Positions 1,216 through 12,441 of a stretch of 12,974 nt of DNA are shown here, in pieces; within the stretch, counting starts at the first letter, position 1; each line of letters starts with the position of its first letter. The DNA is from a virus (taxonomy: Duplodnaviria; Heunggongvirae; Uroviricota; Caudoviricetes). The position numbers and the translations under genes are program-made. The notes under the pieces are model-generated. The model was not told the origin of the DNA. It ran no database searches and saw only the letters and a list, made by a program, of their open reading frames with translations. The DNA is taken from IMG/VR virus record IMGVR_UViG_2648501669_000022, positions 1-12,974 of that record. One strand, 5' to 3'.

Positions 1216-1343
1216 CTGGTTGAGTATACAGTAGTAGACTTTGAGCGACGAAAGAAAAGGCTGTGTCTAGGGTCGCTCCCGAAAATCCGTACACCTCGAC
1301 GGACTGGTACAGCCACTACAGTAGAGGACGCTGAGGTGTGCGT

Positions 1344-2643: not shown

Positions 2644-3444
2644 ATGAAACTGCGAAAAACGCCCGTACAGGGGCAGGGCTTCGTTCGGCCTGAAAACCAG
2701 AATCTGCAAAATTTCGGCGAAATTATCCCGATTATTTCCGGCGTTATTGGCGGGAGTGAAACCACTATTGTTAGCGCCAGAGCGTTACATAAGGCGTTAG
2801 GTGTAGGGCGCGTTTTCCGTTCGTGGATCAAGGGGCGCATTGAAGAATACGGGTTCACGGAAGGCGTGGATTATGAGGTTGTTGAATATTTGAGCCGACC
2901 CGATCCGGTGAGCGCAAAATCTCGCCAGCAAACCGCTCTTGAGTACATCATCACAGTGAACATGGCGAAAGAACTGGCGATGGTCGAACGTACCGAACAG
3001 GGCCGCGCCGTTCGCCAGTACTTTATCAAATGCGAGGAGGAGCTACACAAGGTAGCGCCAGTGCGTTCCGCAGCGTTACGCCGGGAACTGAAAGCCCGTA
3101 TCACCGTTGCCAGCTACTTTAAGCCAATGTGTGCCGCGCTGGAGGCGTACCGGGCTGAACTGGGTAAAAACACGTTCCAGCACCACTACACCACGGAAGC
3201 CAATATGCTGGCGCGTATCGTGCTGGGTGGCATGACTGCAAAACAGTGGGCGCAGGCGAACGGCATCACAGGCGAACCACGCGACCACATGAGCACGTTG
3301 CAGCTTGAGCACCTTTCTTACCTTGAGCAGAGCAATATCACGCTGATTGAGTTAGGCCAGGGCTACCACCAGCGGAAAGCTGAATTAATTCGTCTTTCGC
3401 AGCGTTGGTTAGCCCGTCGCATGGAGGAAAACAGCCATGTGTAA
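2644..3444 (+). CDS. AntA/AntB-type antirepressor-like protein (N-terminal domain), C-terminal domain unknown
   Basis: 266 aa; N-terminal segment SARALHKALGVGRVFRSWIKGRIEEYGFTEGVDYEV resembles the AntA/AntB N-terminal domain as I remember it. AGGAG 5 nt upstream of the ATG. Confidence 0.6.
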   Translation: MKLRKTPVQGQGFVRPENQNLQNFGEIIPIISGVIGGSETTIVSARALHKALGVGRVFRSWIKGRIEEYGFTEGVDYEVVEYLSRPDPVSAKSRQQTALEYIITVNMAKELAMVERTEQGRAVRQYFIKCEEELHKVAPVRSAALRRELKARITVASYFKPMCAALEAYRAELGKNTFQHHYTTEANMLARIVLGGMTAKQWAQANGITGEPRDHMSTLQLEHLSYLEQSNITLIELGQGYHQRKAELIRLSQRWLARRMEENSHV

Positions 3445-3750
3445 CGCTCTGACCGTTACAAAAAGAAAAAGCGCCCCGTTGCCGGAGCGCCTTTGTGAAC
3501 GAATAGCCTACTGCGCCATATTGCTTACTGTCTACGAGGCAGATTATAGCGTTGTGGTCGCACAGAGTGAAGGCGCAGATCACCGTTACTACAGCACACC
3601 AGAAATGCAGAATATTTTGCTGCAAAATGTCGTTGGCCACGCTGTCCGGAAAGCAAAAAATTTTGCTGGTGGCGTGACTGATACGATTTTTTCTGGTTGC
3701 TCGGTGCTGATCAACTTAACCTGGACTTATGTACAACATTGCAACTATTC

Positions 3751-3897
3751 CTACTTTAAGCTGAATGTAACTTTACCTATATCATTAGAGGTATGGTCGC
3801 GCTTGACCTCAATTTCACCATTTTGTAGCCCTGCTACAAAAAAATATAAAAGTGTCAATGTTGCTGCAATCAGTAACCATTTTCCAAAAATATACAT
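3751..3897 (-). CDS. Small membrane peptide (48 aa), not in the ORF track
   Basis: Translated by hand from the minus strand: MYIFGKWLLIAATLTLLYFFVAGLQNGEIEVKRDHTSNDIGKVTFSLK. One predicted TM helix at the N-terminus. Starts 21 nt downstream of the Arc-like stop on the same strand; AT-rich; weak SD-like AAGGG upstream. Confidence 0.35.
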   Translation of the reverse strand: MYIFGKWLLIAATLTLLYFFVAGLQNGEIEVKRDHTSNDIGKVTFSLK

Positions 3898-3918
3898 TCT
3901 TGATTTTACCCTTAATCG

Positions 3919-4092
3919 TCAACCTTTTGGCACGATGCCTCGCTGTTGTAATTCTTTGCGGAGCACTCGTTTAATCCAGGTAGCTAATGAGGTGTCGCCG
4001 TCTGCTTTGGCTGCCTCCTCAAGTTGTGCCCTAAATTCTTCTGGTAGCCGCATTTGGTATGGTGGCGATCGTTTTTCTAATGGTGTTGACAT
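3919..4092 (-). CDS. Arc/MetJ-type ribbon-helix-helix DNA-binding protein (57 aa), not in the ORF track
   Basis: Translated by hand from the minus strand: MSTPLEKRSPPYQMRLPEEFRAQLEEAAKADGDTSLATWIKRVLRKELQQRGIVPKG. Beta-strand-like PYQMRLP followed by two helices is the Arc/Mnt pattern. The start codon is embedded in a palindromic operator. Confidence 0.65.
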   Translation of the reverse strand: MSTPLEKRSPPYQMRLPEEFRAQLEEAAKADGDTSLATWIKRVLRKELQQRGIVPKG

Positions 4093-4144
4093 GGTAATTA
4101 CCCATAATTACTATAGTTACACGGTAATTACCATTGTACTTACC
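4093..4144. promoter_or_regulatory. Divergent promoter/operator region: perfect 10-bp palindrome GGTAATTACC x2 plus a degenerate third site
   Basis: GGTAATTACC at 4093-4102 (abutting the Arc-like start codon) and 4123-4132, 30 bp centre to centre; degenerate copy GTACTTACC at 4136-4144; TATAGT-like -10 for the minus strand at 4111-4116. Confidence 0.55.
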
Positions 4145-4228
4145 ATTGCAAAAAAAACAACGCCCCGGACTGCGGGAACAGTACCAGGGCGTCTAACCAC
4201 CAACGATAGCGAAAGTATCGAGGTAGCT

Positions 4229-4432
4229 ATGATAAATCATACCACACACCCGCAAGGGCGGGACTCGCACAACCTGAATAAATACATCTGGCGTTTTATC
4301 GCCCTGAGCACGGCACAACCGCGCGTAATTCACATCGAGGCCACCAGCGAACAGGAAGCACGCCAGCAATCTCCTGATGGCTGCGTGATGGTATTCGCCG
4401 CCCGTATTCGCCAGGAGGTGCACCATGCATAA
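4229..4432 (+). CDS. Hypothetical protein (67 aa), first gene of the replication operon
   Basis: This is only the 3' part of the 331-aa track ORF (3437-4432). ATG at 4229 with GAGGT 4 nt upstream; the upstream 800 nt of that ORF overlaps the Arc-like gene and the intergenic region and translates to low-complexity sequence. Stop overlaps the next start. Confidence 0.5.
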   Translation: MINHTTHPQGRDSHNLNKYIWRFIALSTAQPRVIHIEATSEQEARQQSPDGCVMVFAARIRQEVHHA

Positions 4433-4790
4433 CCTGTCAATTTCTGACCTTAACAGCATTCAGTTTGATGAGAAATTTACCGGGCAGCTACTGGTCAATG
4501 TGGAGAATGGACGCGTGGTAAGTAATTACCACCTGCCGGATGGTGCAATTGCCGGAAGTGTTGAAGCATTGCTGGAGCTGGCAGAACGTGCGCGACTGAT
4601 TAAGCCGTCAACGTGCCATCACGATGATGATCTGCATTTTACCGGACGCATGGTGAGTCACTACGAAAACGGCGTTGAGGTATCCCGCGAACGTATGCGT
4701 GATAATTGCTGTTTCGGAACACTGCCGGAATTTATCGAATTGCTGACCAGTTGCGGTTATCAGGTTATTCAGGGGGTGAATCATGGATAA
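4425..4790 (+). CDS. Hypothetical protein (121 aa) made of two tandem copies of a ~50-aa FTG-motif domain
   Basis: AGGAGGTG 4 nt upstream of the ATG. Internal repeat: FTGQLLVNVENGRVVSNYHL... and FTGRMVSHYENGVEVSRER.... Start and stop both overlap neighbouring genes. Confidence 0.6.
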   Translation: MHNLSISDLNSIQFDEKFTGQLLVNVENGRVVSNYHLPDGAIAGSVEALLELAERARLIKPSTCHHDDDLHFTGRMVSHYENGVEVSRERMRDNCCFGTLPEFIELLTSCGYQVIQGVNHG

Positions 4791-4983
4791 TCAGCAAGCA
4801 ACAATGACAATTACCCTGAGTGTGCCAGATGATTTCACCGGACGCGTACTGGTTTACCTGGATAAAGGGAAAGTGAAATCACAATGCCGACTGAAAAGTA
4901 ATGAGATTGTTGGTTCTCCTGAATTTTTTTCTGAACTTTGTATTCGTGCGAAAATAAAACCGGAACTGCTGACAGGAAAATAA
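4783..4983 (+). CDS. Hypothetical protein (66 aa), single-copy paralogue of the FTG-motif domain
   Basis: FTGRVLVYLDKGKVKSQCRL...GSPEFFSELCIRAKIKPE aligns with both repeats of the upstream gene; AGGGGGTGA upstream. Confidence 0.6.
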   Translation: MDNQQATMTITLSVPDDFTGRVLVYLDKGKVKSQCRLKSNEIVGSPEFFSELCIRAKIKPELLTGK

Positions 4984-4987
4984 AACC

Positions 4988-5278
4988 ATGAAAAAGAAAA
5001 ATTCTGGCTTTACTGCCAGCGGCCCCGCTCGGCCTGAAATCAGACACGGAGATATTTACCGCGACACCAGACGTGGGGGACGAGTGGTTATTCGTCACGT
5101 TACGCCAGGCAATATCACCTACCGCCGTGAGGCTTACGAATATGACTGCGTAATGCCGCGCCGTCAGTTTGAGCGTGATTTTATTCTGGTGGAAAACAAA
5201 CAACAGGCGGTGGCAAGACGTGCAGCCACGAATATTAAAAAAATCCGGGCAATGTTGGTTGCGGGAGGTAAGAAGTGA
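4988..5278 (+). CDS. Hypothetical basic protein (96 aa)
   Basis: ORF with AGGAAAA upstream; stop overlaps the GTG start of the helicase gene. No family recognised with confidence. Confidence 0.5.
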   Translation: MKKKNSGFTASGPARPEIRHGDIYRDTRRGGRVVIRHVTPGNITYRREAYEYDCVMPRRQFERDFILVENKQQAVARRAATNIKKIRAMLVAGGKK

Positions 5279-6687
5279 AAAACGCACCGAATTTGAAATA
5301 TCAGCCGAAGGATAAATTCACTGAGGTAATCATTTTTGCCGGGACGGACGCTTACTCCCATGCTCAACACTGGATTGAAAGCGAAGGACGGAAACACGGC
5401 GATAATGTGCCACCTGTTTACCTGGGGCCAAAGCAACTGGCAGACCTGGCGAATATCCGCATTATTGACGAGAAACGCCGCTTTGCACGTGTCTATCTCG
5501 CGGGGGAGATCGAACCAATCCAGATCAATGCTATCGCTGAAAAGCTGGCGCTGGCTGGCGTACAGGAGGCGAAATTATACAAAGGTATCACCGACCGGGA
5601 GCCGGAGAACTGGCGCGACTACCTGCAACGGATCCGCGAACAGGCAGAGCGCGAAGAAATGCTTACTGACGAGCAATACAGCCAGCGAAAAACCACACTA
5701 CCAATGAGTATTGGATCTGCAGGGTACGACACACAGCTTGATTATGTCGTTAAGGGCGTGATTCCGGCTAATTCATTGTGCAGCACATACGGCGCGAGCG
5801 GTTCCTATAAATCGTTCCTCGCGTGTTCCTGGGCGTGTCATGTTGCCACGGGTCGCCACTGGGGAGGCCGCAGGGTGGCGCATGGTTCGGTGATGTATGT
5901 CGTCGGTGAAGGTGGCATTGGTGTCCCTCGTCGTATCAAAGCATGGGAAATCGTTAATGATGAACGGGTGAAAAATCTGTACCTGGTAAACCGCCCGATT
6001 TTTCCGGCGGTCCCGCTTGATGTTGATGAAATGGTCATCGCTTCCCGTCAGGTTGAACGGGAAACGGGTAAACCGGTACGCATGATTATTCTGGATACGC
6101 TGGCGCGTTGCTTTGGCGGTAATGATGAAAATGACGCGCGGGATATGGGGGCGTTTATCCGTGGATGTGACGAACTGAAACGACGCACGGGGGCCACGGT
6201 ACTGGTGGTTCACCATTCCGGCAAGGATGAAACAAAAGGGGCGCGTGGTTCCAGTGCATTTCGTGCATCTCTGGACGCTGAATACCGTATTCGCCGTGAA
6301 GGTGCGGACAGTGAAGCCCTGGTTATCTCCTGCACCAAAATGAAGGACGCGGAGGAACTGAAAGAGGCTGCATATGATTTACGCGTGGTGGAGCTTTTTA
6401 CCGACACTGACGGGGAGTTAATCACGTCGCTGGTGGTTGTGGATAAGCCGCGCCCACCTGTTGAACTGGAACGCATCGAGGAGGCCGGGAACAAGACGGA
6501 AAATCACGCTGCGCTATGGCAGTGCATCAGAACGCGAACAGCACACGGGGAGGCGTGCACTATCGCCCTTCTCCGCGATGATATGAAAAAGCTGGGGTAT
6601 GAAATGAAAAACTTCCGGCGCTGGCTGTACAAGCTGGAAAGCGACGGCGTAATCGCTATTGACGGTGATTATGTGCGCCCACTGTAA
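5275..6687 (+). CDS. RepA/DnaB-like RecA-fold replicative helicase (the family I remember as AAA_25), probable replication initiator of the island
   Basis: 470 aa; GTG start with GGGAGGT 5 nt upstream. Walker A-like GASGSYKS, Walker B-like ILDTLARCF, and VLVVHHSGK motif typical of RepA-type helicases. Its stop abuts the iteron array. Confidence 0.8.
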   Translation: MKNAPNLKYQPKDKFTEVIIFAGTDAYSHAQHWIESEGRKHGDNVPPVYLGPKQLADLANIRIIDEKRRFARVYLAGEIEPIQINAIAEKLALAGVQEAKLYKGITDREPENWRDYLQRIREQAEREEMLTDEQYSQRKTTLPMSIGSAGYDTQLDYVVKGVIPANSLCSTYGASGSYKSFLACSWACHVATGRHWGGRRVAHGSVMYVVGEGGIGVPRRIKAWEIVNDERVKNLYLVNRPIFPAVPLDVDEMVIASRQVERETGKPVRMIILDTLARCFGGNDENDARDMGAFIRGCDELKRRTGATVLVVHHSGKDETKGARGSSAFRASLDAEYRIRREGADSEALVISCTKMKDAEELKEAAYDLRVVELFTDTDGELITSLVVVDKPRPPVELERIEEAGNKTENHAALWQCIRTRTAHGEACTIALLRDDMKKLGYEMKNFRRWLYKLESDGVIAIDGDYVRPL

Positions 6688-9716: not shown

Positions 9717-10334
9717 ATGAAAATTGCTAAAAACTTAAATCTGATTATCCCTGTGCGCACTGAAAAGGGAAATGGCTGGATCCATGCCACGCCGATCAGC
9801 AAAGAGGTGTTTAAAGAGCATTTCTTCATCCTGAGTAAAACCTTTTCTGCCATTTTTTCTGAAGGTCTTGGTGTTGTTGCGGGTCCGCGCGTTGCCTGCC
9901 TTATGCTGGAGAAAATCTCCCGTGACTCCGGTTTATGGGATGGGGAGAAAGGCATACGTAATACGCTCATAAACGAAATTATTCGCCTGGCAAACCTTGT
10001 TTATCCAGTGGAGGGCAAAGGCTACGACACAATCCCTCTCGATATGGCGCTGGAGCGTGAAATCGTTGATTTGGACGAAGTGGCGGGTGAACTTGTTTTT
10101 TTTACATGCGTCTCGTCGATAAATTCCCCGGAGCAGACGAAGGGGACTATGGATGCGGTGAATGGAATATGGAGCACTCAATGCTCGTCCTTGAGTCTTA
10201 CGGAATGGATCGCTTCATTGCCGACATTGAAGCCTGCCGTCAGTTCTGGCGCGACGGCGAACACGTCATCAGCGACATCCTCGACTACTCAGCCGGAGCC
10301 GGATTCAGAGACATCTGTGCAGATTCCGGTCTGA
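9717..10334 (+). CDS. Hypothetical protein; zero-frame ORF convincing only to about 10105, possible tail-assembly-chaperone-like gene
   Basis: GAGTGAG 6 nt upstream of the ATG. The first ~129 codons look protein-like; after the T8 run the zero frame becomes Ser/Thr-rich low complexity and loses the G-rich first codon position, which the -1 frame shows instead. Confidence 0.5.
   Translation: MKIAKNLNLIIPVRTEKGNGWIHATPISKEVFKEHFFILSKTFSAIFSEGLGVVAGPRVACLMLEKISRDSGLWDGEKGIRNTLINEIIRLANLVYPVEGKGYDTIPLDMALEREIVDLDEVAGELVFFTCVSSINSPEQTKGTMDAVNGIWSTQCSSLSLTEWIASLPTLKPAVSSGATANTSSATSSTTQPEPDSETSVQIPV
10097..10103 (+). other. Candidate -1 slippery heptamer T_TTT_TTT within a T8 run (10096-10103)
   Basis: Zero-frame codons are GTT TTT TTT. 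The -1 frame has a stop at 10088-10090, opens at 10091 and runs to 10399. Confidence 0.4.
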
Positions 10335-10399
10335 ATGTAAAAACAGCAGCTCAGTTTCGTGAGCTGCTCAAATTCAAGAATCCCGCAGGAGTATTGTAA
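10106..10399 (+). CDS. -1 frame ORF (97 codons from the ATG), likely translated as a frameshift extension of the upstream gene or as its own product
   Basis: Better codon-position bias than the overlapping zero frame; its stop overlaps the next start (TAATG at 10397-10401), indicating translational coupling to the 680-aa gene. Confidence 0.5.
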   Translation: MRLVDKFPGADEGDYGCGEWNMEHSMLVLESYGMDRFIADIEACRQFWRDGEHVISDILDYSAGAGFRDICADSGLNVKTAAQFRELLKFKNPAGVL

Positions 10400-12441
10400 T
10401 GTCAGGTAATCAGATGCCAGTTCTGACGCTGGACGTTAATGAAGAACACCTCAAACGGCTTGAGGCAATTTTTGAAAAGTATCGCAACGGGCTGATGATC
10501 GGCCCTGCAGGAACGCCGATGAAAATACCGGGGCAAAGTGGGCGCAGCGTGGGGGCAGGCTTACCCGTGGCGGCAAAATCTGGTCGGACAGGACCGGATG
10601 TATCCGGGAGAGTGAGGGACGAAAAAGGGCGCTTTGTCGGCAGTGGAAAAACAGCAGATTCGTTCGTAAGCAACTATAAAGGTCGCGGCGAAACGATGTT
10701 TGATAAGTATCTCAGCGGGCTGGGGAAAAATGCCCAACAGACGCTGAAAACTTACAAGCAGATCAATTCTACGCTACAGACGACCACTTCGAGATTAAAC
10801 AACCTGTTTAAAACAACCGTATCGTGGGGGACAAAACTTGCGGTTATGGGCGTTGCCGGGCCGTTTGGCTTTGGCATGATGTCTCGTAGTGTTGTAGAGA
10901 AACAGAAAAATGCAGATGAGCTGGTGGCAACGCCGGGAGAATTAAAGGCGGCAGAGAGTACCTATTCACCTTATTTTTCCGGTGTTGGCAATGTGCTCAA
11001 TACACTGGCAGCCGCGCAAAATGATCAAGAACACCCCGCCCGCGTTGGCCTGCTTCATCTGGGGATTAATCCTGATAAAAACGCGACTGAAAACCTGCCT
11101 GTATTCCTGAAAAAGGTTGCAGAGCTGGCAAAGGAATATCAGGGAAGTGGTCTTACCCAGAGTATGCTCAGGGGAAGAGGGCTTGGATGGGTAAATTTTG
11201 GTCTTACTAACCAGTTAGTCAAATATCAGGACAAAATACCTGAACTCAACAAAGAGTTTTCGTTACGTGCAGCGCAGAATGATTCGTTACTGACCTCTGC
11301 ACATACAAGTAAATATCAGAATCTTACCAGTAACCTGGAAAAAAACTGGGATCGGCTTACCAGCGGATTTCAGGGAGCAATGGCGGGGAATGAAGACGCT
11401 TTAATCAGAATGTCTGATGGTACCACGAATGCTGCCCTGAATTTCATGAATGGTGAGAACTTTAAAAGGATTCTGACTGATGTTGAAACGGGGCTGGATA
11501 AACTTGGTAAGTACGTTAATGGCCCGGATTTTAATAACGACCTGAACAATTTTGCCGAAAACGTTGCAAAGGTCACCAAGGCACTTAGCGGATTTGTTGG
11601 TTTTGCCGTTGAACATCCCTGGCTTTTTGGGGCCGCAGTGCTTGCGGGGCCATCAAGAGTTGGTGCCGTGGCAGCCACAACAACCGGAGTTGCCGCTCGT
11701 GTTGTCGGTGGAAGTCTTCTTGGGGCTACAGCCGGAACAGTAGCAGGATTGGCTATTCCTACAAATAACACACCTACCACCAGTGAGGAAATGAAAGGGC
11801 TGGAGGGGCGTTTCAACTTTGATTATTTTAACGAAGTGCAGGAGTGGCAAAAAAACAATCCGGGTAAGGTCTGGCCTGGAGGATTGCAGGGATTTTCAAA
11901 TCAAGTAAACAGATCTGCATATTTATCCAGAGGGATCAGGAATAACAATCCCGGAAATCTTAATTTCGCAGGACAAAAAGGGGCTACCCTGGAATCGGGG
12001 CCAAATGCCCGTTTTGCCAGCTTCCCGACGATGCTGGAAGGCATTGCTGCCTTAGATCGGCAGGTAATGCTATACCTGAAACGCGGCAAAAATACGATTG
12101 ATCAGATCATTGATATTTATGCCCCTTCATCTGATGGAAATAACACATCGTCCTATAAAAGCTATCTCTCTCAGTACACCGGTTTAGGTGTTAAGGAGAA
12201 AATTGATGGTTCTAATTTTGAGGTCATGAAAAAGCTAATTCAGGGCATTATTAACCATGAAAATGGTGCTGCCGCTAAAGCTGTAAGTGTTGAAGATGTG
12301 ATCCGGGCGCTGGCTATGAATCGTGGGATTGTCCCTACAGCAGGAAATAATAATCAGAACGTTAAGCTTGATATTCTTCAAAAACCAGGCTCCGACATAG
12401 TCGCTCAACTGGCCGGATTTTCGGGGCTTATGCCGAGGTAA
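10399..12441 (+). CDS. Large tape-measure-like protein (680 aa) with Gly/Ala-rich hydrophobic segments and a C-terminal NNPGN-motif domain
   Basis: AGGAG 7 nt upstream of the ATG. Central segment AVEHPWLFGAAVLAGPSRVGAVAATTTGVAARVVGGSLLGATAGTVAGLAIP; N/T/S/K-rich helical regions; C-terminal RGIRNNNPGNLNF...IYAPSSDGNN. The gene itself is well supported; the function is a guess. Confidence 0.7.
   Translation: MSGNQMPVLTLDVNEEHLKRLEAIFEKYRNGLMIGPAGTPMKIPGQSGRSVGAGLPVAAKSGRTGPDVSGRVRDEKGRFVGSGKTADSFVSNYKGRGETMFDKYLSGLGKNAQQTLKTYKQINSTLQTTTSRLNNLFKTTVSWGTKLAVMGVAGPFGFGMMSRSVVEKQKNADELVATPGELKAAESTYSPYFSGVGNVLNTLAAAQNDQEHPARVGLLHLGINPDKNATENLPVFLKKVAELAKEYQGSGLTQSMLRGRGLGWVNFGLTNQLVKYQDKIPELNKEFSLRAAQNDSLLTSAHTSKYQNLTSNLEKNWDRLTSGFQGAMAGNEDALIRMSDGTTNAALNFMNGENFKRILTDVETGLDKLGKYVNGPDFNNDLNNFAENVAKVTKALSGFVGFAVEHPWLFGAAVLAGPSRVGAVAATTTGVAARVVGGSLLGATAGTVAGLAIPTNNTPTTSEEMKGLEGRFNFDYFNEVQEWQKNNPGKVWPGGLQGFSNQVNRSAYLSRGIRNNNPGNLNFAGQKGATLESGPNARFASFPTMLEGIAALDRQVMLYLKRGKNTIDQIIDIYAPSSDGNNTSSYKSYLSQYTGLGVKEKIDGSNFEVMKKLIQGIINHENGAAAKAVSVEDVIRALAMNRGIVPTAGNNNQNVKLDILQKPGSDIVAQLAGFSGLMPR

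What the first reader, a model, noticed from the sequence alone, without database searches (positions are those of the whole stretch)
3751..4144. Unlisted minus-strand pair, Arc-like RHH protein plus a 48-aa membrane peptide, under palindromic operators
Neither ORF is in the six-frame track (both are under 60 aa), but both translate cleanly and lie 21 nt apart on the same strand. The RHH gene start is embedded in a perfect GGTAATTACC palindrome, repeated 30 bp away, which is the classic self-operator layout of Arc/Mnt-type repressors. This pair is the only minus-strand unit in the window and faces the replication operon, so it may be the island's master repressor. The membrane peptide could be a toxin-like or exclusion effector kept in check by the RHH protein, or a modulator of the switch.
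Basis: partly seen in the sequence, partly recalled or inferred. Interest (0 to 1): 0.6.

Follow-up and report, generated by a model that had tools for sequence, protein, structure and literature searches.

The report
Satellite-island repressor switch; peptide doubtful
A small unannotated DNA-binding repressor gene and its two binding sites sit head-to-head with the replication genes of a phage-satellite island and probably keep them switched off together with a newly recognised antisense RNA, whereas the neighbouring 48-residue "membrane peptide" is a lineage-specific open frame with no sign of being a working partner.

Summary
Both minus-strand ORFs exist (57 aa, 4092..3919; 48 aa, 3897..3751; 21 nt apart). 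GGTAATTACC occurs twice, 30 bp apart, and the first copy abuts the start codon.

The 57-aa protein is a genuine, conserved Arc-like ribbon-helix-helix protein, found in 63 protein clusters and about 30 gammaproteobacterial genera. Between two E. coli alleles all 9 of its substitutions are synonymous.

Across about 55 distinct loci the operators keep their positions and change sequence together with the protein's beta-strand. A consensus TTGACA-17-TAnnnT promoter pointing at the Icd-like/replication operon overlaps the RHH start codon and holds operator 1 in its spacer. The RHH is therefore very probably an autoregulated repressor of that operon.

It works beside a conserved ~80-nt antisense RNA (4232..4149) that matches no Rfam family and covers the Icd-like ribosome site.

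The peptide is not a partner. It is absent from every syntenic RHH locus outside ten E. coli genomes, has no homologues, shows no purifying selection, and lies in a 204-bp low-GC insert.

The window is a Gram-negative PICI. The model island EcCICFT073 carries a YlcI/YnfO cassette at the same site.

An unexplained stop-free plus-strand frame runs antisense through the whole cassette.

The parts
3919..4092 (-). Gene for a 57-aa Arc-like ribbon-helix-helix protein (predicted beta-strand ~res 11-16 PYQMRL, helices 18-31 and 36-50); candidate repressor of the island's rightward operon
   Evidence: It is found in 63 protein clusters at 60-98% identity across Enterobacterales, Pasteurellaceae, Aeromonadales and Orbales and in 72 genome loci. 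All 9 substitutions against the L002 allele are synonymous. The AF2 model has pLDDT 77, and every Foldseek PDB hit is an RHH protein, with Arc at rmsd 0.9 A over 38 residues but E>=1.5. PHROG 228 'Arc-like repressor' scores E=1e-6. Pfam Arc scores 16.8 bits, below its 20.4 cutoff.
4093..4102 (.). Operator O1: perfect palindrome GGTAATTACC abutting the RHH start codon and lying in the spacer of the rightward promoter
   Evidence: A palindrome sits at this position in nearly all of 55 distinct loci, and its sequence changes with the RHH beta-strand motif.
4123..4132 (.). Operator O2: second perfect GGTAATTACC, 30 bp from O1, covering the predicted start points of both promoters
   Evidence: A distal copy at 27-35 bp is present in most loci.
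4135..4144 (.). Degenerate third copy (TGTACTTACC, 2 mismatches) overlapping the RHH promoter -10
   Evidence: (family D1); weak evidence.
4086..4114 (+). Predicted rightward promoter P_R: TTGACA (4086-4091), 17-nt spacer, TACTAT (4109-4114); start about 4121; drives the Icd-like/replication operon
   Evidence: It matches 10 of 12 consensus positions. TTGACA overlaps the RHH start (ATGTCAA) in 52 of 55 distinct loci, and 49 of them have an A2/T6 hexamer 16-18 bp away.
4133..4160 (-). Predicted RHH promoter P_L: -35 TTGTTT (4160..4155), 16-nt spacer, -10 TACAAT (4138..4133); start about 4126, inside O2
   Evidence: It matches 8 of 12, below the scanner threshold. TTG(T/C/A)TT at 16-18 nt from TA(C/T/A)AAT is conserved at -46/-47 in about 35 loci of the GGTAATTACC clade. 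This part is inferred.
4149..4232 (-). Conserved ~80-nt cis-antisense RNA to the Icd-like translation initiation region: -10 TATGAT at 4241..4236 (outside this span), 5' hairpin, terminator hairpin 4192..4160, U-tract 4157..4150
   Evidence: Covariation: 21 pairs, 95.7% of cells paired, 14 pairs with compensatory changes, 0 of 500 shuffles as good. Strand: 661 of 691 cells pair on this strand against 571 on the sense strand, with 97 against 7 G-U pairs. Fold energy is -38 kcal/mol, z=-5.9. The -10 hexamer keeps a fixed distance from the structure. The covariance model finds the RNA in islands outside the training set, including EcCICFT073. No Rfam family matches it.
3751..3897 (-). 48-aa ORF ('membrane peptide'); reality doubtful, not part of the conserved switch
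   Evidence: Only 2 clusters exist among 5.8 billion proteins, and exhaustive HMMER adds nothing real. No tblastn hit in phages or plasmids, none in viral contigs, one metagenome contig. It is absent downstream of the RHH in the loci of other genera. Against the second allele there are 6 non-synonymous nucleotide changes, a stop shift and 3 synonymous changes. An ORF this long arises in 11.6% of codon shuffles.
3715..3918 (.). 204-bp lineage-specific insert that carries the 48-aa ORF, between the RHH stop codon and the island backbone; the ORF itself is 34% G+C against 47-48% for its neighbours
   Evidence: Homology with the RHH islands L004-L006 begins at 3918/3923. Homology with the YlcI-type island L003 ends at 3714.
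3715..4146 (.). Exchangeable 'immunity cassette' (insert, RHH, operators, both promoters), replaced in other islands, including EcCICFT073, by a YlcI/YnfO cassette
4229..4432 (+). Icd-like gene (67 aa), first gene of the regulated operon (then 121 aa, 66 aa, DUF4222, AAA_25 RepA-type helicase at 5275-6687)
   Evidence: NCBIfam NF033153 E=3.9e-20. Pfam AAA_25 and DUF4222 hits. RefSeq annotation of the near-identical island.
3437..4432 (+). Stop-free plus-strand frame (331 codons) starting at an ATG with a GGAGGA Shine-Dalgarno that overlaps the antA stop; it runs antisense through the peptide ORF, the RHH gene, the operators and the sRNA, in phase with Icd-like
   Evidence: This frame has 0 stops in 272 codons against 16 and 20 in the other two frames. 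The same holds in unrelated cassettes (L003 0/375, L005 0/530, L082 1/389). 22 of 57 loci in other genera show it. Substitutions are not biased towards synonymous. Its function is not established.
3467..3494 (-). Terminator-like hairpin with T-tract, the first one downstream of the RHH/peptide transcript
   Evidence: 12 pairs, 7 G-C.

Best explanation
The window is a Gram-negative phage-inducible chromosomal island (int, int-alpA RNA, alpA, antA, Icd-like, replication genes, PerC, morphogenesis genes).

Repressor. Coordinates 3919-4146 hold its protein-based immunity element, a 57-aa Arc-like RHH repressor transcribed leftward. Dimers bind two identical palindromes. O1 lies in the spacer of a near-consensus rightward promoter (P_R) whose -35 box overlaps the RHH start codon. 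O2 covers the predicted start points of P_R and of the RHH's own promoter. Occupied operators would therefore shut off the Icd-like/replication operon and also limit RHH synthesis (autoregulation).

Antisense RNA. A second layer lies immediately upstream on the same strand. An ~80-nt antisense RNA is complementary to the Shine-Dalgarno sequence and start codon of the Icd-like gene. Its terminator tail doubles as the -35 of the RHH promoter. It would block translation of the first, translationally coupled gene of the operon.

Cassette. The RHH, its operators and both promoters form an exchangeable cassette. The allelic alternative, found in EcCICFT073 among others, encodes a YlcI/YnfO protein with different repeats.

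Peptide. The 48-aa ORF lies in a 204-bp low-GC insert unique to one E. coli lineage. It is probably not a functional partner and may not be a gene at all.

Shown: the ORFs, the palindromes, conservation and purifying selection of the RHH, protein-operator co-variation, promoter consensus and its conservation, RNA covariation and strand bias, and the cassette boundaries.

Inferred: DNA binding, repression, autoregulation, the transcription start points, and the action of the antisense RNA.
For: RHH is real. It forms 63 clusters and 72 loci, and all 9 substitutions between alleles are synonymous.

RHH fold. The AF2 model gives only RHH proteins in Foldseek. PHROG 228 scores 1e-6. hhalign against Arc gives E=6.7e-4 with the beta-strands aligned.

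Operators. The exact 10-mer occurs twice, against 0 of 200 shuffles. Their position is conserved in 55 loci. (Q/P)(Y/F)QMRL goes with GGTAATTACC, QYQ(I/L)RL with TGTAATTACA, and QFPMRL with GGTATATACC.

P_R. It matches 10 of 12. TTGACA is kept in 52 of 55 loci and a -10 in 49 of 55. The same promoter is found in L004.

P_L. The hexamers are conserved.

Antisense RNA..

Island context.. Pasteurella 'phage' Pmp8, a packaged 15-kb satellite, has the RHH divergent from its primase operon.

Peptide is not conserved..

Literature. [quoted passage not shown]
Against: There is no experimental evidence for binding, repression or transcription, and all promoters and start points are consensus predictions.

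Pfam Arc is below its gathering threshold (16.8 against 20.4 bits). The Foldseek E-values are not significant (>=1.5), as expected for a 57-residue monomer model.

P_L scores only 8 of 12 and is not recognisable in the TGTAATTACA clade.

AlpA is an experimentally shown activator of EcCICFT073 genes (PMC6092414), so the RHH need not be the 'master' switch.

The peptide ORF does stay open in both alleles, has an AAGGG motif 11 nt upstream, and fills 72% of its insert. It arises in only 1.1% of naive shuffles, so it cannot be dismissed outright.
Confidence: 0.7

Rival explanations
1. The 48-aa ORF is a real accessory gene, a small single-pass membrane protein co-transcribed with the repressor in the quiescent island. 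It would be a 'moron' such as a superinfection-exclusion or abortive-infection factor, as lambda rexAB are co-expressed with cI. The RHH switch stands as described, but the peptide is cargo rather than noise.
For: The ORF starts 21 nt after the RHH stop on the same strand with no terminator in between; the first terminator is at 3494..3467. AAGGG lies 11 nt upstream of the ATG. The ORF is open in both alleles, with 3 synonymous changes and 1 replacement in its C-terminal 35 residues. It fills most of a discrete low-GC insert. An ORF of at least 48 aa arises in only 1.1% of dinucleotide shuffles. In other islands the same slot holds other small genes of the phrog_21027 type, so it is a cargo position.
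Against: It is an orphan among 5.8 billion and 1.8 billion proteins, with no hit in phages, plasmids or viral contigs and no PADLOC or Pfam match. Overall there are 6 non-synonymous nucleotide changes plus a stop shift against 3 synonymous ones, which is compatible with neutrality. Its hydrophobicity follows from the T-rich strand. Given the stop-free plus-strand frame over it, an ORF this long is expected in 11.6% of codon shuffles.
Confidence: 0.25
2. The pair is a toxin-antitoxin module: the RHH is the antitoxin and autorepressor, and the membrane peptide is the toxin.
For: RHH antitoxins that autoregulate through palindromes are common, and Foldseek hits include VapB, ParD, AtaR and MazE-type antitoxins. 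Some database names for family members read 'HicB family antitoxin'. The gene order, DNA-binding protein first and small hydrophobic ORF second, fits.
Against: The RHH occurs without any conserved downstream ORF in the loci of other genera and stands alone with its own terminator in L004. The peptide never occurs without this RHH and is confined to one lineage. The operators are positioned on the promoter of the divergent replication operon, not only on the RHH's own promoter. No known type II toxin is a 48-aa membrane peptide (established knowledge). No antisense RNA against the peptide was seen, so a type I layout is also lacking.
Confidence: 0.03
3. The RHH is real but only a local autoregulator, or a regulator of something else. 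On this reading the TTGACA-17-TACTAT match is not the operon promoter, and the replication operon is controlled solely by AlpA-dependent read-through from upstream and by the antisense RNA.
For: AlpA activates downstream genes in EcCICFT073 (PMC6092414). A stop-free, translationally coupled plus-strand frame links antA to Icd-like across the cassette, which suggests that productive expression comes from upstream. The promoters are predictions only.
Against: TTGACA is conserved in 52 of 55 loci at the cost of constraining RHH codons 2-3 to TCA-A, with a -10 hexamer at 16-18 bp in 49 of 55. O1 lies exactly in the spacer and O2 at the predicted start. An antisense RNA aimed at the Icd-like ribosome site implies that transcripts carrying that leader are made while the island is quiescent.
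Confidence: 0.1

Closest known systems
Phage P22 immI region (Arc and Mnt RHH repressors plus sar antisense RNA controlling ant)
   Same: Both use small RHH repressors acting on palindromic operators that overlap a strong promoter, with a divergently transcribed maintenance repressor, closely overlapping opposed promoters, and a ~70-80-nt cis-antisense RNA covering the ribosome site of the first regulated gene. The RHH beta-strand aligns with Arc PQFNLRW. Arc is among the best structural matches. The sRNA terminator weakly resembles that of sar. The P22 details are recalled from established literature.
   Different: No sequence-level membership: Pfam Arc is below threshold and Rfam sar scores 18 bits against a gathering score of 43. 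There are two separate 10-bp palindromes 30 bp apart rather than one 21-bp operator. The regulated operon encodes Icd-like and replication proteins, not an antirepressor. Only one repressor gene is present. The host element is a satellite island.
Plasmid copy-control circuits: pMV158 CopG (RHH) + RNAII, R1 CopB + CopA
   Same: Both put a replication operon under dual negative control. A small RHH-type transcriptional repressor acts at the rep promoter, and a short constitutive antisense RNA with a 5' stem-loop and a terminator hairpin blocks translation initiation in the leader. The plasmid details are recalled from established knowledge.
   Different: Here the repressor gene is divergent from the operon rather than its first cistron. 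The antisense target is the Icd-like leader ORF. The element is integrated and helper-dependent. No homology to CopG or RNAII was detected beyond the shared RHH fold.
EcCICFT073 and related E. coli PICIs (YlcI/YnfO cassette)
   Same: The island architecture is the same, and a minus-strand cassette occupies the same position between alpA/antA and Icd-like. The same antisense RNA is present (L082 10771-10856, E=1.5e-13). The same stop-free plus-strand frame is present. A small second gene follows the DNA-binding gene.
   Different: The DNA-binding protein is YlcI/YnfO, which is not demonstrably homologous: NCBIfam gives 20.1 bits against a cutoff of 30 and hhalign probability is 0.3%. Its upstream repeats are direct (GGTGTGGCCCAC twice), not GGTAATTACC palindromes.
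Satellite P4 immunity (CI RNA, seqA/seqC, nested eta/kil translation)
   Same: Both are satellites with integrase and AlpA, an RNA-based immunity layer in the zone between alpA/Bro-type genes and replication genes, and a long frame translationally coupled to the upstream gene that runs through the immunity region (PMC10111431).
   Different: No C4 or isrK (CI/seqA) match was found in the window. The RNA here is a true antisense transcript with its own promoter and terminator, not a processed sense-strand RNA. P4 has no protein repressor at this site.
SaPI Stl / Gram-positive PICI Rpr master repressors
   Same: Both are repressor genes transcribed divergently from the excision/replication operon of a phage satellite (PMC6092414).
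   Different: Stl and Rpr are much larger helix-turn-helix proteins inactivated by helper-phage proteins. Nothing is known about how this RHH would be relieved.

Membership tests
Ribbon-helix-helix (Arc/MetJ/CopG) superfamily | N-terminal beta-strand followed by two helices, of a size compatible with an intertwined dimer | tested here: met
   The AF2 model has helices 18-31 and 36-50 preceded by an extended segment, pLDDT 77. All 36 Foldseek PDB hits are RHH proteins or close relatives; Arc, NikR and AmrZ align at rmsd 0.9-1.5 A over 36-38 residues, but E>=1.5. The dimer itself was not modelled.
Pfam Arc (PF03869) | Score at or above the curated gathering threshold | tested here: not met
   16.8 bits against a cutoff of 20.4, E=0.0064. 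PHROG 228 'Arc-like repressor' scores E=1e-6.
Arc/Mnt-type phage repressor (functional class) | Palindromic operator overlapping the regulated promoter and the repressor's own promoter | tested here: met
   O1 lies in the spacer of TTGACA-17-TACTAT and O2 at the predicted start points. The layout is conserved in about 50 loci. Operator sequence co-varies with the beta-strand. Binding itself cannot be tested with these tools.
YlcI/YnfO family (NCBIfam NF041551) | Score at or above the curated cutoff | tested here: not met
   20.1 bits against 30. hhalign against a YlcI member gives probability 0.3%.
Type II toxin-antitoxin module | Antitoxin and toxin genes co-conserved as an adjacent pair | tested here: not met
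   No conserved downstream ORF is present in the RHH loci of other genera. The RHH is monocistronic with its own terminator in L004. The peptide is an orphan.
Type I toxin (small membrane peptide plus antisense RNA) | Conserved hydrophobic peptide with a cis- or trans-encoded antisense RNA against its mRNA | tested here: not met
   The peptide is not conserved. No Rfam hit or promoter-plus-terminator unit lies opposite it. The antisense RNA that was found targets the Icd-like gene, not the peptide.
Rfam sar RNA (RF00262) and C4/isrK (P4 CI-type) immunity RNAs | Covariance-model score at or above the gathering threshold | tested here: not met
   sar matches partially, on the terminator only, at 18.2 bits against 43, E=1.3. 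No C4 or isrK match appears even at E<=10.
cis-antisense regulatory RNA (functional class) | Own promoter, a structure conserved through compensatory changes on the antisense strand, an intrinsic terminator, and full complementarity to a translation initiation region | tested here: met
   The -10 hexamer keeps a fixed distance from the structure. 14 pairs covary and 0 of 500 shuffles do as well. Strand asymmetry is 661 against 571 paired cells. The hairpin with its U8 tract is seen. The RNA spans the SD and ATG of Icd-like (4220-4231). Transcription itself cannot be tested with these tools.
Gram-negative PICI | Integrase and alpA in the same orientation, a replication module, and PerC/morphogenesis or packaging genes within roughly 10-15 kb | tested here: met
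   int 1-1215, int-alpA RNA, and AlpA, AntA, DUF4222 and AAA_25. PerC-like, DUF2213/phrog_6216 and terS-like proteins. The near-identical island lies between abgR and smrA. Its synteny matches EcCICFT073. Helper-dependent mobilisation was not tested.

The most novel reading that the evidence does not exclude
The RHH cassette, its YlcI/YnfO alternative, the shared antisense RNA and the stop-free plus-strand frame together form the so far undescribed immunity switch of Gram-negative PICIs. While the island is quiescent, the protein repressor shuts P_R and the antisense RNA blocks the Icd-like ribosome site. On helper infection, AlpA-driven transcription from upstream enters the cassette. It is translated through from an ATG coupled to antA/alpA, which protects it from termination and from antisense RNA pairing, as in P4 eta/kil. 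It collides with repressor transcription and so bypasses both layers. The exchangeable cassettes would define immunity groups among co-resident satellites. In this reading the 48-aa peptide would be lineage-specific cargo expressed with the repressor.
Probability: 0.3. Interest if true: 0.7.

Novelty: new member of a known kind. Interest (0 to 1): 0.5.

Why it matters
[quoted passage not shown] This window, and by synteny the model island EcCICFT073, carries a compact and largely unannotated control region directly upstream of the replication operon. It holds a small repressor with operators on a near-consensus promoter, and a conserved antisense RNA that matches no Rfam family.

If these elements work as their layout suggests, they explain how such islands stay silent. 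They also give defined targets (O1/O2, the RHH, the sRNA) for engineering PICI-based delivery vehicles. The exchangeable cassettes may be immunity determinants.

The result also shows that about 9% of complete E. coli genomes carry this RHH gene, often unannotated or labelled hypothetical. The negative result on the peptide saves effort on a probable non-gene.

Tried and rejected
Peptide homologues. I searched the 5.8-billion-protein word index and ran exhaustive HMMER on 1.84 billion representatives. That returned only the peptide itself and a spurious hit to a eukaryotic sushi-repeat protein. tblastn against phages and plasmids found nothing, viral contigs nothing, and metagenomes a single contig holding the same island. 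Pfam, PHROG, NCBIfam and PADLOC gave no hits.

Toxin-antitoxin reading. Rejected on distribution.

RHH against solved structures by sequence. The only hits were designed helical repeats, which are a composition artefact, and AmrZ at E~0.6. This was uninformative.

RHH as a YlcI/YnfO relative. Not supported.

sRNA as a known Rfam family. Not supported.

Naive shuffle test of the peptide ORF. It looked significant at 1.1%. I superseded it with a codon shuffle that keeps the overlapping plus-strand frame open, which gives 11.6%.

Possible second small RNA (promoter 3571..3543, terminator 3494..3467). The fold is not better than shuffles, z=-1.6, so I did not pursue it.

Literature. Searches for RHH, YlcI or Icd-like regulation in PICIs found nothing relevant.
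Full report
**1. What is in the sequence**

The window carries two minus-strand ORFs:
- 3919..4092, 57 aa, MSTPLEKRSPPYQMRLPEEFRAQLEEAAKADGDTSLATWIKRVLRKELQQRGIVPKG
- 3751..3897, 48 aa, MYIFGKWLLIAATLTLLYFFVAGLQNGEIEVKRDHTSNDIGKVTFSLK

They are 21 nt apart and in the same frame.

GGTAATTACC occurs exactly at 4093-4102 and 4123-4132. None of 200 dinucleotide shuffles reaches the observed count. The arms extend to 12 nt (4091-4102 and 4123-4134), and a degenerate third copy lies at 4135-4144.

**2. Context**

The window is a Gram-negative phage-inducible chromosomal island. Its gene order is:
- a P4-type integrase (1-1215)
- the Rfam int-alpA RNA (1260-1327)
- AlpA and an AntA-family protein
- the minus-strand pair
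- an Icd-like gene (4229-4432; NCBIfam 3.9e-20)
- two small genes, DUF4222 and an AAA_25 RepA-type helicase
- ProQ/FinO-like, PerC-like, DUF2213 and terS-like genes

A 99.5% identical stretch lies in an island between abgR and smrA in porcine ETEC strains. There RefSeq annotates nothing between antA and Icd-like.

The model island EcCICFT073 has the same layout. At the same site it carries a minus-strand YlcI/YnfO gene plus a 57-aa gene.

**3. The 57-aa protein is real and Arc-like**

*Distribution.* It belongs to a family of 63 clusters, mostly exactly 57 aa long. They come from Escherichia, Salmonella, Yersinia, Xenorhabdus, Photorhabdus, Pectobacterium, Pantoea, Gilliamella, Oceanimonas, Aeromonas and Pasteurellaceae. 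I retrieved 72 genomic loci. In E. coli, 488 of 5426 complete genomes carry the gene with its operators.

*Selection.* Between the window and a 94.6% identical allele, all 9 differences in the gene are synonymous.

*Fold and family.*
- The AF2 model has an extended N-terminus followed by helices 18-31 and 36-50.
- It retrieves only RHH proteins from the PDB. Arc, NikR and AmrZ align at rmsd 0.9-1.5 A over about 37 residues, but the E-values are not significant.
- PHROG 228 'Arc-like repressor' scores 1e-6.
- Pfam Arc is below its cutoff.
- In an hhalign comparison the segment SP(Q/P)YQMRL aligns with the Arc DNA-reading strand MPQFNLRW.

I file it as an RHH protein of Arc-like type, not as a member of Pfam Arc.

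**4. The palindromes behave as its operators and sit on a promoter facing the replication operon**

The proximal palindrome abuts the start codon in nearly all of 55 distinct upstream regions, and a second copy lies 27-35 bp further upstream.

The sequence changes with the beta-strand:

| Beta-strand motif | Operator | Loci |
|---|---|---|
| (Q/P)(Y/F)QMRL | GGTAATTACC | most |
| QYQ(I/L)RL | TGTAATTACA | 12 of 14 |
| QFPMRL | GGTATATACC | 7 of 7 |

That co-variation is the strongest available evidence that this protein reads these sites.

On the plus strand, TTGACA (4086-4091), a 17-nt spacer and TACTAT (4109-4114) form the only strong promoter-like site in the region. The -35 box is the complement of the RHH start, ATGTCAA. 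It is kept in 52 of 55 loci, and an A2/T6 hexamer lies 16-18 bp away in 49 of them. O1 therefore lies in the promoter spacer and O2 at about +2 to +11.

The RHH's own promoter is weaker. It consists of TTGTTT, a 16-nt spacer and TACAAT, with the -10 flush against O2. It is conserved as TTGnTT with a 16-18-nt spacer and TA(C/T/A)AAT in about 35 loci.

The two predicted start points (about 4121 rightward and about 4126 leftward) face each other. RNA polymerase and the repressor would therefore compete on one roughly 60-bp stretch. Repression of the Icd-like/replication operon and autoregulation follow from this geometry, but both are inferred.

**5. A second layer just outside the finding's coordinates**

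Immediately upstream of the RHH promoter, on the same strand, lies a G+C-rich hairpin (4192..4160) followed by T8 (4157..4150).

*Structure.* I aligned 33 diverse loci. RNAalifold predicts a 5' hairpin and this terminator. There are 21 pairs, 14 of them with compensatory changes. 95.7% of cells are paired, against 35-53% when partners are slid. None of 500 shuffles does as well.

*Strand.* Pairing is better on the RHH strand, 661 of 691 cells against 571, with 97 against 7 G-U pairs. The 84-nt RNA folds at -38 kcal/mol, z=-5.9.

*Promoter.* A TAnnnT hexamer keeps a fixed distance from the structure, about 40 nt from the conserved GGTTAGA motif. In the window it is TGG-TATGAT at 4244..4236. The distance holds even where the divergent start codon has shifted by 6 nt.

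*Target.* The RNA (about 4230..4150) is fully complementary to the Shine-Dalgarno sequence (4220-4223) and the ATG (4229) of the Icd-like gene. In most relatives the anti-SD sits in the loop of the 5' hairpin.

*Spread.* A covariance model finds it in islands that were not used to build it:
- the YlcI-type island L003
- EcCICFT073 (E=1.5e-13)
- the packaged Pasteurella satellite Pmp8

Rfam has no matching family. The only echo is a sub-threshold hit of the terminator to P22 sar.

The logic, a small RHH repressor plus a cis-antisense RNA on the leader of a replication operon, is that of P22 immI and of pMV158 CopG/RNAII or R1 CopB/CopA. That comparison rests on recalled knowledge.

**6. The 48-aa ORF is not a partner**

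*Position.* Homology between the window and other RHH islands starts exactly at the RHH stop codon (3918/3923). Homology with YlcI-type islands ends at 3714. The ORF therefore sits in a 204-bp insert, and the ORF itself is 34% G+C.

*What other islands hold there.* Downstream of the RHH, other E. coli islands have either nothing plus a terminator (L004) or an unrelated hydrophilic 58-67 aa gene of the phrog_21027 type. In the loci of other genera there is no conserved second ORF.

*Homologues.* The peptide has two clusters among 5.8 billion proteins and nothing further in an exhaustive HMMER search. It has no tblastn hit in phages, plasmids or viral contigs, and one metagenome contig from the same island.

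*Selection.* Between the two alleles there are six non-synonymous nucleotide changes (five residues), a shifted stop and three synonymous changes. That is compatible with neutrality.

*Chance.* An ORF this long arises in 1.1% of dinucleotide shuffles. It arises in 11.6% of shuffles that keep the overlapping plus-strand frame stop-free.

I put the chance that it is a functional gene at about one in four. If it is, it is lineage-specific cargo in a variable slot, not a toxin held by the RHH.

**7. An unexplained feature that overlaps the finding**

*The frame.* The plus-strand frame in phase with Icd-like has no stop codon from 3437 to 4432. That is 0 stops in 272 codons, against 16 and 20 in the other two frames.

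*Its start.* It begins at an ATG preceded by GGAGGA. This ATG overlaps the antA stop codon (ATGTGTAA).

*Its path.* It runs antisense through the peptide ORF, the RHH gene, both operators and the sRNA.

*Other loci.* The same is true in islands with unrelated cassettes and in 22 of 57 loci of other genera:

| Locus | Stops in the Icd-like frame / codons | Stops in the other two frames |
|---|---|---|
| L003 | 0 / 375 | 16 and 21 |
| L005 | 0 / 530 | 32 and 43 |
| EcCICFT073 (L082) | 1 / 389 | 19 and 29 |

*Selection.* Substitutions in this frame are not biased towards synonymous. What is preserved is openness, not a protein sequence.

*Possible meaning.* This recalls the P4 eta/kil arrangement. 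There, translation coupled to the alpA homologue carries transcription through the immunity region (PMC10111431). A plausible but untested reading is that AlpA-dependent transcripts from upstream are translated through the cassette and so bypass both immunity layers.

**8. Comparison and novelty**

The published description of Gram-negative PICIs says that a global repressor is 'unclear' and that AlpA is an activator (PMC6092414). A later survey places P4-type immunity RNAs in the zone between alpA and replication in some islands (PMC10111431). I found no report of an RHH or YlcI repressor cassette, or of this antisense RNA, in the searchable literature.

The RHH with its operators is a new member of a very familiar kind. 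The interest lies in where it sits and in the two features around it.

**9. Verdict**

- Observation: confirmed.
- Interpretation: right for the RHH and its operators, wrong for the 'pair'.
- Confidence in the repressor-plus-antisense model: about 0.7.
- Interest: moderate (0.5).

Noticed in passing
window 4149-4232 (-), promoter -10 at 4236-4241: A conserved ~80-nt cis-antisense RNA targets the Icd-like ribosome binding site. It has its own -10, a 5' hairpin and an intrinsic terminator, shows strong covariation and strand bias, and matches no Rfam family. It is present in EcCICFT073, in YlcI-type islands and in Pasteurella satellite Pmp8.
   Followed up: yes
window 3437-4432 (+): A stop-free 331-codon frame starts at an SD-ATG overlapping the antA stop. 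It runs antisense through the peptide ORF, the RHH gene, the operators and the sRNA, in phase with Icd-like (0 stops against 16 and 20 in the other frames). The same holds in unrelated cassettes and in EcCICFT073. The amino-acid sequence is not under purifying selection. It may be read-through translation of the P4 eta/kil type.
   Followed up: partly
L082 (E. coli CFT073, NC_004431.1) 10243-10860: The model PICI EcCICFT073 carries a minus-strand YlcI/YnfO gene plus a 57-aa gene at the same site. Two direct repeats GGTGTGGCCCAC lie about 27 bp apart between that gene and the sRNA terminator. These are probably the operators of an alternative immunity cassette.
   Followed up: partly
L003 3460-3660, L005 3736-3939, L006 3760-3936, L082 10243-10416: The slot after the repressor gene often holds a hydrophilic 58-67 aa protein of the phrog_21027 type, with the motif F.LE.F.K.Y.R. 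Its function is unknown, and it accompanies both RHH and YlcI repressors.
   Followed up: partly
L005 (E. coli O111 11128) 3997-5377: Two immunity modules lie in tandem: RHH plus sRNA (4227-4310), then YlcI/YnfO plus a second sRNA copy (5097-5180) plus Icd-like. A single stop-free 602-codon plus-strand frame spans both.
   Followed up: no
window 1260-1327 (+): Rfam int-alpA RNA motif (RF02996, 45.5 bits, above the gathering score) between the integrase and the 267-aa gene.
   Followed up: no
window 3458-3571 (-): In the conserved spacer after antA there is a promoter-like site (TTCACT-17-TATAAT, 3571..3543) about 50 nt upstream of a strong terminator hairpin (3494..3467). It could be a small transcript, or just the terminator of the RHH mRNA. 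The fold is not better than shuffles (z=-1.6).
   Followed up: partly
window 3905-3915 and L002 3651-3661 region: The 11-mer ATTAAGGGTAA precedes both the peptide ORF (window) and the RHH start in the sister allele (AATTAAGGGTAATTACC). It may be a shared ribosome-site context, an operator half-site (GGTAA), or a recombination scar.
   Followed up: no
L079 (Pasteurella phage Pmp8, OR544139.1) 4313-5183: A 15-kb element deposited as a phage, with portal, protease, terminases and HNH (capsid-forming PICI-like), has the RHH homologue divergent from its Icd-like/primase operon. The antisense RNA lies between them (4867-4951).
   Followed up: partly
window 4521-4530 (+): A one-mismatch copy of the operator (AGTAATTACC) lies inside the 121-aa gene downstream of Icd-like. 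It is probably chance.
   Followed up: no
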